From an uncultured Candidatus Rokubacteria bacterium (GTDB taxonomy: Bacteria; Methylomirabilota; Methylomirabilia; Rokubacteriales; CSP1-6): a stretch of 64,000 nt of DNA. Numbering within the stretch: position 1 is the first letter of the stretch; each line of letters starts with the position of its first letter. Position numbers and translations under genes: made by a program. Below the pieces are notes generated by a model. It did not search any database and was not told where the DNA came from. It worked only from the letters and a program-made list of their open reading frames with translations. Positions 59,157-64,000 of the stretch are shown in pieces. The DNA is taken from positions 1,952,001 to 2,016,000 of the forward strand of contig CAVYTA010000006.1 in assembly GCA_963771355.1 (NCBI GenBank). The letters are read 5' to 3'.

Positions 59157-60023
59157 ATGGCACACGCAGTGCCCGGGCCGGCGGGGCCACCGCCCCTCGG
59201 CCCCGGGGGATTCGACTGGACCGCCTGGAACGCCGACCCCGGCGTGGTCACCGGACTGGTGGCGCTGGGCGCCGTCTATGCGGGCGCGATTCTCCTGCGG
59301 CGCCGGATCGACCCGGAGGCGCCCGTGGAGCCCCACAAGGTGGCGGCCTTTGCGGGAGCACTGGTGGTGCTTTTCGTGGCGCTCACCGGGCCCGTCCACG
59401 ATCTCTCGGACTACTACCTCTTCAGCGCGCACATGGTGCAGCACATGCTGCTGGCGTTCGCGATGCCGCCGCTGCTGCTCCACGGCCTGCCGGGGTGGAT
59501 GGTCCGGCCGCTGCTGCGCGATCCTCGGGTGCGCGGGCTCGGCCGTCGGCTCACCCGCCCCTCGGGCGCCTTTGCCTGCTTCAACCTGGTGCTGGTGGCG
59601 TGGCACCTGCCGCCCCTCTATAACCTTGCCATGGAGCAGCATCCCGTCCACATCGTGGAGCACCTCATGATCATGGCCGCCGCGGTGATCCTCTGGTGGC
59701 CGCTACTCTCCCCCCTCCCGGAGCTGCCGCGCGCGCCCTACCCCGTGCAGATGCTCTACATCTTCGTGGTGGGCCTGCCCATGGTGGTGGTGGCGATCTT
59801 CATCAGCATGGCGGACGGCATTCTCTACCCGTACTATGCGGCGGCGCCGCGAGTCTGGGAGACGCTCACCCCGCGCGCCGACCAGCACCTGGGCGGGCTC
59901 ATCATGTGGATTCCCGGGGGGCTCGTGTTCCTCATCGCGCTGTCGGTGGTCTTCTTCCGCTGGCAGGTGGCGGGCGGCGGGGACGACGCGGTGGCCCCCG
60001 CCGAGGCGCGCCGTGGCGGCTAG
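59157..60023 (+). CDS. ctaG: caa3 assembly factor CtaG
   Basis: LFSAHMVQHMLL, WHLPPLY, HIVEH, DQHLGGLIMWIPG. Confidence 0.9.
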   Translation: MAHAVPGPAGPPPLGPGGFDWTAWNADPGVVTGLVALGAVYAGAILLRRRIDPEAPVEPHKVAAFAGALVVLFVALTGPVHDLSDYYLFSAHMVQHMLLAFAMPPLLLHGLPGWMVRPLLRDPRVRGLGRRLTRPSGAFACFNLVLVAWHLPPLYNLAMEQHPVHIVEHLMIMAAAVILWWPLLSPLPELPRAPYPVQMLYIFVVGLPMVVVAIFISMADGILYPYYAAAPRVWETLTPRADQHLGGLIMWIPGGLVFLIALSVVFFRWQVAGGGDDAVAPAEARRGG

Positions 60024-60981
60024 CCTTCCCCGCCGCCTCGCCTGGCTCACCGTCGGCGCCCTGGCCCTGGTGATGACGCTGGGCAATATCGTGAGCGCCA
60101 CCAGCTCCGGGCTCGGCTGTCCGGACTGGCCGCTCTGCCATGGCCGCGTCATTCCGCCGGGCGGCGCAGAGATCTGGATCGAGTTCCGCCACCGCCTCGC
60201 GGTGCCACTCTTCTCGGCGCTGCTGGTGGCCACCGCCGTCGTCACCTGGCGGCGTGCCGCCACGCCCGCGCTGAAGCGTCTCGCCGCCGCGCTCGTCGGC
60301 CTGCTCGTGGTGCAGATCGTCCTGGGGGGCGTCACCGTGCTGCTGGGGCTGTCCCCGGTGGTGAGCACGGTGCATCTTCTCGTCGCGCTGTCCGTGCTGG
60401 CCGGGCTCATGACCCTCTGCGCGACGCCCGACCCGCCCGGACCCGCTTGGCGAGGTGCAGCCGAAGGCGAGCCGAGCAATTTTGCCGAGCCGCAGCTCGC
60501 CCGCTTCGCGACAGCCGGGCTCGCGGTACTGCTCATCCAGCTGGCGCTGGGCGGGTATGTTCGGCACTCGGGCGCGGGCCTCGCCTGTCCCGACTTCCCG
60601 CTCTGCAGCGGAGACGTGTTCCCCGGACACTGGCTGGGCTGGGTGCACTGGCTGCACCGCTGGCTCGGCGTGGTCCTCCTCGGCTTCTTCCTCCACCTCG
60701 CCCGGGTGAGCCGGCGCACCGCGCTGGCGGGTGTCGGCGCCGCGGTGGCCGGCCTCGCGGTGGCCCAGGTGACGCTGGGCATCCTGGCCGTGCTGCTGCG
60801 CCTGCCCATCACCGTGCGCGCCAGCCACGCGGTCGTGGGCTATGCGCTCTGGGCGCTCCTCGTCTGGATCGCGGTGCGCGCGGGCGCCTGGGGCGCGAGC
60901 CTCGGCCCGACTATGGAAATCCGCTCGGCTCGCCTTCGGCTGCGCCTCGCCAAGCCACGGCTGCGCACCGGCGCTCGATAG
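60013..60981 (+). CDS. ctaA: Haem A synthase (COX15/CtaA), two internally repeated halves
   Basis: SGLGCPDWPLCHG, EFRHR, AGLACPDFPLCSG, HWLHR; GTG 60013. Confidence 0.88.
   Translation: MAASLPRRLAWLTVGALALVMTLGNIVSATSSGLGCPDWPLCHGRVIPPGGAEIWIEFRHRLAVPLFSALLVATAVVTWRRAATPALKRLAAALVGLLVVQIVLGGVTVLLGLSPVVSTVHLLVALSVLAGLMTLCATPDPPGPAWRGAAEGEPSNFAEPQLARFATAGLAVLLIQLALGGYVRHSGAGLACPDFPLCSGDVFPGHWLGWVHWLHRWLGVVLLGFFLHLARVSRRTALAGVGAAVAGLAVAQVTLGILAVLLRLPITVRASHAVVGYALWALLVWIAVRAGAWGASLGPTMEIRSARLRLRLAKPRLRTGAR
60445..60477 (+). repeat. 33-bp intragenic repeat element, copy 1
   Basis: gcttggcgaggtgcagccgaaggcgagccgagc; reverse complement matches 60923-60955 at 32/33. Confidence 0.9.
60923..60955 (-). 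repeat. 33-bp intragenic repeat element, copy 2 (inverted)
   Basis: gctcggctcgccttcggctgcgcctcgccaagc. Confidence 0.9.
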
Positions 60982-60991
60982 GACCGAAATA

Positions 60992-61942
60992 ATGGCCACC
61001 GCCGCTCCCGGACCCGCGACGCCGTCGTCTGCGCAGGGCGCCGCGCTGACCGGCGTGCGCAGCCGTGCCGGCGCCTATGCCGAGCTCTCGAAGTTCGGGA
61101 TCGTGCTCCTGGTGCTCGTCTCCGCGGGGGCCGGCTTCATGCTGGCGGCGCCGCTGGGCCCGGAGTTCCCCTGGGCGGCGGGCCTGATCGTGCTGCTGGG
61201 GGTGATGCTCCTGTCCTCGGGCGCCTCCGCGCTGAACCAGGTCCAGGAGCGCCGGCGCGACGCGCTCATGACGCGGACGGCGGGCCGTCCGCTTCCGTCC
61301 GGCCGCCTCTCGTTCGGTCAGGGCCTCCTCTTCGCGATCCTGGCCCTGGGCGCGGGCGCGCTGATCCTCTGGCTCGGCATCGGCCGCACCGCCGGCATCC
61401 TCGGCATCGTGGCCGCCGCCTTCTACAACGGGCTCTACACGCCCTGGCTCAAGCCCACCTCGCCCTTCGCGGCGGTGCCGGGAGCCCTGCCCGGCTCATT
61501 GCCGCCGGTGATCGGCTGGGTCGCGGGAGGCGGCAGCCCGCTGGACTCGGGGGCCTTCATCCTGTTCGGGATACTGTTCTTGTGGCAGATGCCGCACTTC
61601 TGGGCCCTGGCCCTCCGGTACAAGGAGGACTACGCCGCGGGGGGCTTCCCCATGGTGGCGGAGGCGGTGGGCGTGGAGGGCACCGCCCGGCTCATCCTCG
61701 TCTACGCCTTCGGCCTCACCGCGCTGTCGCTCGCCGCGCCCACGTTCGGGCTGGGCGGCCCGGCGTCCCTGGCCGCGGCCGCGCTGCTGGGCTGGCGCCT
61801 CATCTGGCTCGCCACCAAGTTCGCGCGCCACCCCGAGGACCGACGCGGTTGGCTGTCGCTCTTTCTCTTCTCGAACCTCTATCTCCTCATTCTCTTCCTC
61901 GTGCTGGTCGGAGAGCGCCTCGCGCGATTCGCCCTCGGCTAG
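60992..61942 (+). CDS. ctaB: Protohaem IX farnesyltransferase (haem O synthase)
   Basis: ALNQVQERRRDALMTRTAGRPLPSG, YTPWLK, LWQMPHFWALA..YKEDY. Confidence 0.93.
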   Translation: MATAAPGPATPSSAQGAALTGVRSRAGAYAELSKFGIVLLVLVSAGAGFMLAAPLGPEFPWAAGLIVLLGVMLLSSGASALNQVQERRRDALMTRTAGRPLPSGRLSFGQGLLFAILALGAGALILWLGIGRTAGILGIVAAAFYNGLYTPWLKPTSPFAAVPGALPGSLPPVIGWVAGGGSPLDSGAFILFGILFLWQMPHFWALALRYKEDYAAGGFPMVAEAVGVEGTARLILVYAFGLTALSLAAPTFGLGGPASLAAAALLGWRLIWLATKFARHPEDRRGWLSLFLFSNLYLLILFLVLVGERLARFALG

Positions 61943-63300: not shown

Positions 63301-64000
63301 GTGCGCGTGCTCGTGACGGGCGGGGCCGGCTTCATCGGCTCGCACCTCTGCGACCTCCTCCTCGGCAAGGGCTGCGAGGTGGTGTGCATGGACAATCTCC
63401 TCACCGGCAGTGCCGACAATATCGCCCACATCCACGACCCGCGCTTTCTCTTCGTCAAGCACGACGTCACCAACTACATCGTGGCGGACGGTCCCATCGA
63501 CTACGTGCTCCACTTCGCGAGCCCCGCCTCTCCCATCGACTACCTCGAGCTGCCCATCCAGACCCTCAAGGTGGGCGCGCTGGGCACGCACAAGGCGCTG
63601 GGGGTGGCCAAGGCGCGCGGGGCCAAGTTCCTCCTCGCCTCCACTTCCGAGGTGTACGGCGACCCTCTCGTCCACCCGCAGCAGGAGGAGTACTGGGGCA
63701 ACGTCAACCCGGTGGGCCCGCGCGGCGTGTATGACGAGGCCAAGCGCTTCGCGGAGGCCATGACCATGGCCTATCACCGCTTCCACGGGGTGGACACGCG
63801 CATCGTGCGCATCTTCAACAGCATCCCGGGAAACGAAACCGTGGTTGTCTTCGACAACGACCGGATGTACGTGGGCCCCATCGAGGACTGGGTGGACACG
63901 ATCGAGACCGAAGGTATCGAGGGGCGGAAGATCCTCGTCCCCGCCTTCGATCCCGTGACGTGCCGCATGGCCCTCAAGCCGGTGAGCGCCGTGATCAAGC
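63301..64000 (+). CDS. UDP-glucuronate decarboxylase (UXS-like extended SDR), interrupted by a putative intein, 3'-truncated by window
   Basis: [45 protein letters not shown]; open to the window end, absent from ORF track. Confidence 0.92.
63820..64000 (+). mobile_element. Putative intein, N-terminal splicing region (block A)
   Basis: After RIFN the expected TYGPRM is replaced in frame by [10 protein letters not shown]...IEDWVD...[23 protein letters not shown]. Confidence 0.78.

What the first reader, a model, noticed from the sequence alone, without database searches (positions are those of the whole stretch)
60445..60955. 33-bp element twice, inverted, inside ctaA coding sequence, bracketing its second half
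Seen: 60445-60477 and 60923-60955 are reverse complements at 32/33 nt. Copy 1 is translated in the linker between CtaA's two homologous halves (AWRGAAEGEPS). Copy 2 forms part of an atypical C-terminal tail (RSARLRLRLAK). Together they enclose the second haem-A-synthase half (511 bp). Knowledge: Rickettsia palindromic elements show that interspersed repeats can insert in frame into tolerant protein loops. Inference: a REP/MITE-like family colonising proteins, or a long-range mRNA pairing or invertible segment affecting ctaA/ctaB expression.
Basis: partly seen in the sequence, partly recalled or inferred. Interest (0 to 1): 0.7.

Follow-up and report, generated by a model that had tools for sequence, protein, structure and literature searches.

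The report
Hairpin repeat recurrently invading ctaA
The two inverted 33-base copies belong to a small hairpin repeat scattered about 60 times through this soil bacterium's genome, which has landed in the floppy linker and tail of the haem A synthase gene in several related species and in either orientation, so the inverted arrangement is likely incidental and the case is a new family of a known kind of selfish repeat.

Summary
Observation confirmed (32/33; none in shuffles). Both copies belong to a dispersed repeat of Rokubacteria: 61-65 copies at 40 loci here, present in 100 of 158 other genomes of the family. Most copies sit at operon junctions on the coding strand; some are translated inside conserved proteins. 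The ctaA linker and tail are recurrent landing sites. Across 8 genomes of the genus they are empty, single or tandem, and the linker copy occurs in both orientations; 0 of 24 orthologues from other genera carry it. Only 2 of 8 have the inverted pair, so an invertible segment or selected long-range mRNA pairing is unlikely. The tail peptide RSARLRLRLAK is peculiar to this assembly: close strains read NPLGSPSAAPRQ and stop on the ctaB start. The core shows compensatory changes, a free-N GNA triloop and near-invariant G·A mismatches, typical of single-stranded DNA hairpins. No cognate RAYT, IS or reverse transcriptase was found. It works like intragenic REPs/Rickettsia RPEs and mycobacterial MIRUs but fails GTAG-REP membership. 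This scan noted Rokubacterial hairpin repeats in proteins before, on other genomes.

The parts
60013..60981 (+). ctaA, haem A synthase (GTG start inferred; in the frame used by relatives the gene ends at TAA 60990-60992)
   Evidence: PF02628; match to PDB 6a2j haem A synthase, E 2e-18; start from my codon model; other frame
60445..60483 (+). Repeat copy 1: tag 60445-60449, 28-nt hairpin core 60450-60477, A/T spacer to about 60483; sense orientation; adds a net 12 codons to the linker between the two halves of CtaA
   Evidence: linker segment 65 aa against 53 aa in empty G006 and G007
60919..60955 (-). Repeat copy 2: tag 60955-60951, core 60950-60923, start of spacer; antisense to ctaA; translated as part of the C-terminal tail
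60899..60922 (+). Strain-variable spacer; this assembly is +2 nt (mod 3) relative to every close strain that bridges it, which shifts the tail frame
60992..61942 (+). ctaB, haem O synthase (UbiA family); its ATG overlaps the TAA of the relatives' ctaA frame (TAATG)
   Evidence: PF01040
59157..60023 (+). ctaG-type caa3 assembly factor, upstream gene of the same oxidase operon
   Evidence: PF09678

Best explanation
The two 33-mers are copies of a genome-wide hairpin repeat of Rokubacteria that sit in frame in the linker and C-terminal tail of CtaA, likely as separate insertions of a non-autonomous selfish element, and their inverted arrangement is likely incidental. Shown: copy number, empty orthologous sites, both orientations at the linker, all six frames of the core free of stops, a coding-strand bias, and regional clustering of subtypes. 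Inferred: the element is recognised as a single-stranded DNA hairpin (GNA triloop, sheared G·A pairs), probably on the displaced non-template strand of transcribed genes. It would be copied mostly to nearby sites, which would explain why the two ctaA copies are 32/33 alike, and it would expand head-to-tail by slippage or unequal exchange. At operon junctions it would be tolerated because it supplies a stop overlap and a mini-frame ending on the next start codon. Inside genes it would survive only in length-tolerant loops and tails. The copying enzyme is not identified. My odds: an HUH/RAYT-type enzyme acting in trans or now lost 40%, host replication/repair or gene conversion 35%, an RNA route 15%, other 10%.
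For: 61 core matches (0 in the reversed genome) and 65 profile hits at 40 loci (1 in the control). Present in 7 of 7 other genomes of the genus with 23-69 copies, in 100 of 158 of the family and in 0 of 68 from other orders. ctaA linker: sense in G000 and G003, antisense in G001, G004 (x2) and G005 (x2), empty in G002, G006 and G007. Tail: antisense in G000, G002, G003, G005 (x2) and G006, empty in G001, G004 and G007. 0 of 24 orthologues from other genera have it in the CDS, and their linker segment spans 52-72 aa. Other in-frame copies: BadF/BadG ATPase, S30AE linker, acyl-CoA dehydrogenase, LeuRS and a DnaE-like protein. Covariation in 173 copies: pair 6-23 CG 117, GC 37, GA 15, AG 3; pair 2-27 CG 157, GC 5, TA 3; loop base A 111, C 36, G 24, T 2; G·A/A·G mismatches 164-173 of 173. 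GNA triloops are stable DNA mini-hairpins and a corresponding RNA hairpin is much weaker (PMC13037366, passages). 30 sense against 4 antisense copies in co-directional contexts, p 6e-6; adjacent loci share a subtype 27 of 36 times against 19.4 expected, p 0.005. ATGA is duplicated on both sides of the insert in 2 filled/empty pairs.
Against: No mobilising enzyme was found, so mobility is inferred from filled/empty sites only. Of the five or so cleanly aligned filled/empty pairs only 2 show the ATGA duplication. Copy counts in the covariation are not independent events, and the inner 11 nt were the search anchor, so their invariance is built in. Gene calls come from my own codon model, which split two host genes. 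Shared ancestry with later inversion or loss could replace some of the inferred independent insertions; the tree was not tested formally. A naked mRNA would be predicted to pair the two copies (z -5.2), so a side effect on RNA is not excluded. No expression or proteomic data.
Confidence: 0.85

Rival explanations
1. Selected long-range mRNA pairing: the two copies form a 33-35 bp duplex that tunes ctaA/ctaB translation or RNA decay.
For: The predicted fold of 60430-60970 closes a duplex of about 35 bp between the copies (z -5.2, 0 of 100 shuffles). G003 also has an inverted pair.
Against: The pairing follows trivially from any two inverted copies. It is absent in 6 of 8 genomes of the genus, and G005 has both sites in direct orientation. 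34 of 820 locus pairs in the genome are equally alike (at most 1 mismatch in 33), and about 0.17 pairs within 600 bp are expected by chance.
Confidence: 0.06
2. Invertible (phase-variable) segment: recombination between the inverted copies flips the second half of ctaA and switches haem A synthesis off.
For: The geometry is right: 33-bp inverted repeats 445 nt apart.
Against: The arrangement is not conserved. All full-length orthologues keep the second half in the normal orientation. One contig of run X11 bridges copy 2 in the normal orientation, and no strand-changing joint was listed in 8 runs (contigs break at repeats and drop rare variants). No recombinase family was among the five neighbouring proteins scanned.
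Confidence: 0.03
3. Domesticated host element: the repeat is kept because it has a job (ribosome relay, RNA stability or a protein-binding DNA hairpin), and it spreads by ordinary recombination rather than as a parasite.
For: Strong coding-strand bias; 14 of 40 loci overlap the upstream stop codon; many junction copies end in TGATG/TAATG; 34 of the 42 G002 and G003 loci are filled in the same way in G000.
Against: 26 of 79 relatives' loci are empty in G000 and 3 are filled in the opposite orientation. Copy number runs from 0 to 71 within one family. Copies in protein loops have no evident job. Only 51 of 108 array spacings are multiples of 3.
Confidence: 0.12
4. Classical GTAG-REP mobilised by a cognate RAYT that is still encoded in the group.
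For: REP-like size and imperfect hairpin; GTAG precedes 13 of 173 copies and the tag often supplies the stop codon, as described for GTAG REPs.
Against: No Y1_Tnp match in G000 (99.8% complete) or in the 7 congeners. 18 RAYT-like loci from element-bearing genera carry long terminal inverted repeats instead of this element, and none hits G000 by tblastn. Arrays are head-to-tail, not inverted dimers.
Confidence: 0.08

Closest known systems
Intragenic REPs (GTAG and CGTC families; Di Nocera et al. 2013, PMC3733652, section 15 read, other passages seen)
   Same: 20-40 bp imperfect hairpin; mostly between co-directional genes near the upstream 3' end; the tag can supply the stop codon; some copies lie inside ORFs, including two insertions in one gene and hosts such as DnaE2 and tRNA synthetases.
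   Different: No fixed GTAG or CGTC tag (variable G-N-W-K-G); no REPtron found; head-to-tail arrays rather than inverted dimers; stem built on G·A mismatches with a GNA triloop. Their family consensus figure and supplements were not seen.
Rickettsia palindromic elements (RPE; Ogata et al. 2000/2002 as summarised in PMC10969869, passages; originals not read)
   Same: A repeat inserted in frame in unrelated conserved proteins and absent from orthologues.
   Different: About 40-65 nt rather than about 150 nt; read in several frames and on both strands, so no single conserved peptide; a free-living soil lineage; most copies are intergenic.
Mycobacterial interspersed repetitive units (MIRU; Supply et al. 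1997 as summarised in PMC3184786 and PMC12548453, passages; original not read)
   Same: 40-100 bp, about 40-60 per genome, inside operons, tandem arrays of variable number, mini-frames overlapping neighbouring stop/start codons, a four-base duplication at some filled sites, no known transposase.
   Different: Different phylum; frequent in-frame residence inside proteins in both orientations; sequence relationship to MIRUs not tested.
DNA mini-hairpins at primase or polymerase sites (phage G4 origin, RSF1010 ssiA, N4 promoter; PMC13037366, passages)
   Same: The inner CC-GAA-GG and the second hairpin's GC-GGA-GC are the same GNA mini-hairpin motifs.
   Different: Those are single functional sites on phages or plasmids. 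This element was not found in viral contigs or phage records, and plasmid records gave only 3 weak partial hits.

Membership tests
Intragenic REP / RPE-like (works like) | Multi-copy dispersed hairpin repeat | tested here: met
   61-65 copies at 40 loci, controls 0-1
Intragenic REP / RPE-like (works like) | In-frame insertion in unrelated conserved proteins, absent from orthologues | tested here: met
   CtaA, BadF/BadG ATPase, S30AE linker, acyl-CoA dehydrogenase, LeuRS, DnaE-like
Intragenic REP / RPE-like (works like) | Insertion in a surface loop compatible with the fold | tested here: inconclusive
   Copy 1 aligns to the segment joining the two halves of B. subtilis haem A synthase and the linker varies 52-74 aa. 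The single-sequence AlphaFold model was poor (mean pLDDT 54).
Intragenic REP / RPE-like (works like) | Insert-bearing protein is expressed and active | not testable with these tools
   No proteomics; RNA runs held only a small share of the stretch
Rickettsia RPE (membership) | About 150 bp with one conserved encoded peptide | tested here: not met
   Unit of about 40-65 nt, read in at least five of six frames
GTAG-REP / REPtron | Invariant GTAG tetranucleotide at one end | tested here: not met
   GTAG in 13 of 173 copies; GATTG 29, GCTTG 29, GTTTG 10
GTAG-REP / REPtron | Cognate RAYT gene flanked by the repeat | tested here: not met
   0 of 8 genomes of the genus have Y1_Tnp; 13 and 18 fetched Y1_Tnp loci (two overlap) lack the element
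GTAG-REP / REPtron | Inverted dimers (BIME/REPIN) | tested here: not met
   Arrays are direct; the only close opposite-strand pair among 40 loci is the ctaA pair
MIRU (works like) | 40-100 bp, tens of copies, between co-directional genes | tested here: met
   30 of 40 loci between co-directional called genes, 26 of them sense
MIRU (works like) | Mini-frame overlapping neighbouring stop and start codons | tested here: inconclusive
   Clear by inspection at several loci, e.g. C5:590477; 14 of 40 overlap the upstream stop; not shown for all loci and not tested against a null
MIRU (works like) | Tetranucleotide direct repeat at filled versus empty sites | tested here: inconclusive
   ATGA duplicated in L092 and L223; not in L048, L091 or the ctaA linker
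MIRU (membership) | Sequence homology to mycobacterial MIRUs | not tested
   No MIRU sequence was obtained from a tool
MITE | Terminal inverted repeats shared with an IS | tested here: not met
   15 IS110, IS91 and RT loci carry no copy; RAYT-like TIRs are unrelated; other IS families not searched
Invertible DNA segment | Conserved inverted repeats with both orientations in the population | tested here: not met
   Inverted pair in 2 of 8 genomes; no strand-changing joints in 8 contig sets, a weak test
Rfam RNA family | Match above gathering score | tested here: not met
   3 sub-threshold chance hits only in 60300-61100

The most novel reading that the evidence does not exclude
A transposase-free selfish repeat that exists as a non-canonical single-stranded DNA hairpin (GNA triloop plus sheared G·A pairs) on the non-template strand of transcribed genes and is copied locally by host priming or repair enzymes. 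It re-colonises the same protein loops in either orientation and turns over within a species. If MIRUs and RPEs spread the same way, this family, with hundreds of filled/empty site pairs, makes their unknown mobility mechanism testable.
Probability: 0.25. Interest if true: 0.72.

Novelty: new member of a known kind. Interest (0 to 1): 0.36.

Why it matters
Repeats translated inside proteins are known from Rickettsia and from REP-rich genomes, so the ctaA case itself would not surprise a specialist. Three things add value. One gene shows recurrent colonisation of two sites, in both orientations at the linker and with strain-level turnover. The family has a DNA-specific hairpin signature, a transcription-strand bias and regional subtype clustering, which bear on the open question of how MIRU/RPE-type repeats move without an evident transposase. 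In practice, these repeats add spurious-looking peptides and frame breaks to annotations of an abundant soil lineage.

Tried and rejected
RAYT/IS200: none in G000 or its genus; RAYT-like genes elsewhere in the family carry unrelated terminal inverted repeats. Reverse transcriptase in 1 of 5 element-rich genomes, IS91-type in 3 of 5, IS110 in 5 of 5, but none of 15 fetched loci carries the element; IS110 acting through a bridge RNA was not tested further. Viral contigs 0 exact matches, phage records none, plasmid records 3 weak partial hits. Rfam: nothing above threshold. Replication-strand bias: none evident, 12 plus and 13 minus loci on C6. Array spacing as a frame signal: only 51 of 108 spacings are multiples of 3, so not decisive. 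AlphaFold without an alignment gave an unusable model. ViennaRNA DNA parameters do not reproduce the G·A-rich fold, as expected for non-canonical pairs. Eight literature searches listed no paper describing this repeat in Rokubacteria; the library lacks most subscription journals, and the supplements and consensus figure of PMC3733652 were not seen. In the GTDB scan, 18 of 80 listed loci carry non-rokubacterial record titles. One of them encodes a LeuRS 75% identical to that of G000, so I take them as likely mislabelled, but I did not check the rest.

Full report
Observation. The two stretches are reverse complements at 32 of 33 nt and are the only matches in the window, with none in 100 shuffles. 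They lie in a cytochrome caa3-type oxidase operon: ctaG (PF09678), ctaA (PF02628), ctaB (PF01040). Copy 1 falls in the segment that joins the two halves of haem A synthase when aligned with PDB 6a2j; copy 2 falls after the last conserved helix.

A genome-wide family. The 33-mer has 59 matches with up to 8 mismatches in the 5.5-Mb genome. A 28-nt core pattern gives 61 matches against 0 in the reversed genome, and a profile gives 65 hits at 40 loci against 1. A unit is a 5-nt tag (mostly G-N-W-K-G), the core, an A-rich spacer that often ends in ATG, and often a second short hairpin; units form head-to-tail arrays. The pattern occurs 23-69 times in each of the 7 congeners, in 100 of 158 other genomes of the family, 3 of 24 of other families in the order, and 0 of 68 of other orders. 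In the GTDB scan, 62 of 80 listed loci are titled Rokubacteria or Methylomirabilota/Methylomirabilia. It was not found in viral contigs or phage records.

Where copies sit. Using my own codon-model gene calls, 26 of 40 loci lie between co-directional genes on the coding strand, 4 on the opposite strand, 4 inside called genes, 3 between divergent and 3 between convergent genes. The sense bias is 30 to 4 (p 6e-6) and does not follow the replication strand. At 14 of 40 loci the tag overlaps the upstream stop codon, and several copies carry a mini-frame ending in TGATG or TAATG on the next start (by inspection). Of 79 loci from four congeners, 44 are filled the same way in G000, 26 are empty, 3 are filled in the opposite orientation, 2 are remnants and 4 have no syntenic match. 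Two clean filled/empty pairs show ATGA duplicated on both sides of the insert (L092, L223); others do not. All six frames of the core are open. In-frame copies occur in a BadF/BadG ATPase, the S30AE linker, an acyl-CoA dehydrogenase loop, LeuRS, a DnaE-like protein and several C-terminal tails.

The ctaA sites. In the 8 genomes of the genus the linker holds a sense copy in G000 and G003, an antisense copy in G001, two antisense copies in G004 and G005, and nothing in G002, G006 and G007. The tail holds antisense copies in G000, G002, G003, G005 (two) and G006, and nothing in G001, G004 and G007. None of 24 orthologues from other genera has the element in the coding sequence, although several of those genomes are element-rich; their linker segment ranges from 52 to 72 aa. 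Opposite orientations in the two clades of the CtaA tree (FastTree, no topology test) need at least two events at the linker. The inverted pair exists only in G000 and G003.

Why 32/33. Adjacent loci share the core subtype 27 of 36 times against 19.4 by permutation (p 0.005; p 0.009 without the tail copy), and 16 of 16 arrays are homogeneous. The ctaA region lies in a stretch rich in the minority subtype. Local copying or local gene conversion is the simplest reading (inference).

The tail frame. Contigs of close strains show a net -14 nt (X2, X7, X10, X11) or -2 nt (X4, X14) before copy 2; X3 shows 2 unlocated gaps and X1 does not cover the site. The joint tables suggest that X3 and X4 also carry a second 42-nt unit in tandem. 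All these forms give the frame NPLGSPSAAPRQ..., ending in a TAA that overlaps the ctaB ATG, as in G003, G005 and G006; G002 reads the same peptide but has its own frame breaks. The window's RSARLRLRLAK tail is thus either a strain-specific slip or a collapse of a tandem in assembly. A similar break sits beside the copy in the acyl-CoA dehydrogenase gene of G000.

Structure. In 173 copies from five genomes, anchored on the inner 11 nt, the outer columns covary as a hairpin: pair 6-23 is CG 117, GC 37, GA 15, AG 3; pair 2-27 is CG 157, GC 5, TA 3; pair 7-22 is CG 148, TG 23. The loop is G-N-A with N free, and the facing G·A/A·G positions are kept in 164-173 of 173. Counts are copies, not independent events. 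GNA triloops form unusually stable DNA mini-hairpins through a sheared G·A pair, and an RNA counterpart melts far lower (PMC13037366, passages). The complementary strand would have C·T mismatches there. I infer that the element acts as one DNA strand.

Mobiliser. No Y1_Tnp match exists in G000 or its genus; 32 of 158 family genomes have one, but the 18 loci fetched carry long terminal inverted repeats, not this element, and do not hit G000. Reverse transcriptase, IS110 and IS91 loci carry no copy. The enzyme remains unknown.

Rivals. A naked mRNA is predicted to pair the two copies, but the arrangement is not conserved, so selection for pairing is unlikely. Inversion would split a membrane enzyme in two, is not conserved as an arrangement and left no joint in 8 contig sets, a weak test.

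Comparison. It works like intragenic REPs, where two insertions in one gene are already described (PMC3733652, section 15), like RPEs (PMC10969869, passages) and, at junctions, like MIRUs (PMC3184786 and PMC12548453, passages). It fails GTAG-REP and RPE membership; homology to MIRUs was not tested. Eight searches listed no paper on this repeat in Rokubacteria. Earlier notes of this scan describe rokubacterial hairpin repeats at junctions and in proteins on other genomes; I had reached this reading before seeing them and count them as leads only.

Verdict. Real, explained as two copies of a lineage-specific interspersed hairpin repeat; a new family of a known kind. Interest 0.36, with the open question of its copying mechanism worth more.

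Noticed in passing
window 63301-64000 (continues; L366): The NAD-dependent epimerase/dehydratase after ugd carries an intein with a LAGLIDADG domain (PF14890, PF14528; 773 aa).
   Followed up: partly
L371:1-330 (G007:C201): In G007, ctaA runs in frame into ctaB with no stop, giving a CtaA-CtaB fusion; no repeat at the junction.
   Followed up: no
G000:C6:1683220-1683360: A repeat copy sits between two copies of the first 12 or so codons of a gene (a proteasome alpha subunit by my recall of the sequence, not scanned), forming a mini-frame coupled by TGATG; conserved in G003.
   Followed up: partly
L361 (G000:C7:325311-327617): Two repeat units join an FAD-linked oxidase and a short-chain dehydrogenase into one 769-aa frame in G000; G003 has a stop at the junction.
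   Followed up: partly
L362 (G000:C5:925047): The acyl-CoA dehydrogenase is frame-broken just after the repeat in G000 but intact with the insert in G002 and G004; likely an assembly slip.
   Followed up: partly
G000:C6: All 26 repeat loci of contig C6 lie between 0.96 and 2.42 Mb; none in the first 0.96 Mb. Unexplained.
   Followed up: no
L305-L322: A single-copy RAYT-like gene of about 290 aa with long terminal inverted repeats sits at one conserved site in genus g34 and in the fetched g5 genomes G011 and G209 beside the same downstream gene, suggesting long vertical inheritance.
   Followed up: partly
G000:C5:514020-514240 and C6:1092030, 1519720: A longer composite variant with a nested extra hairpin exists alongside the simple unit.
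   Followed up: no
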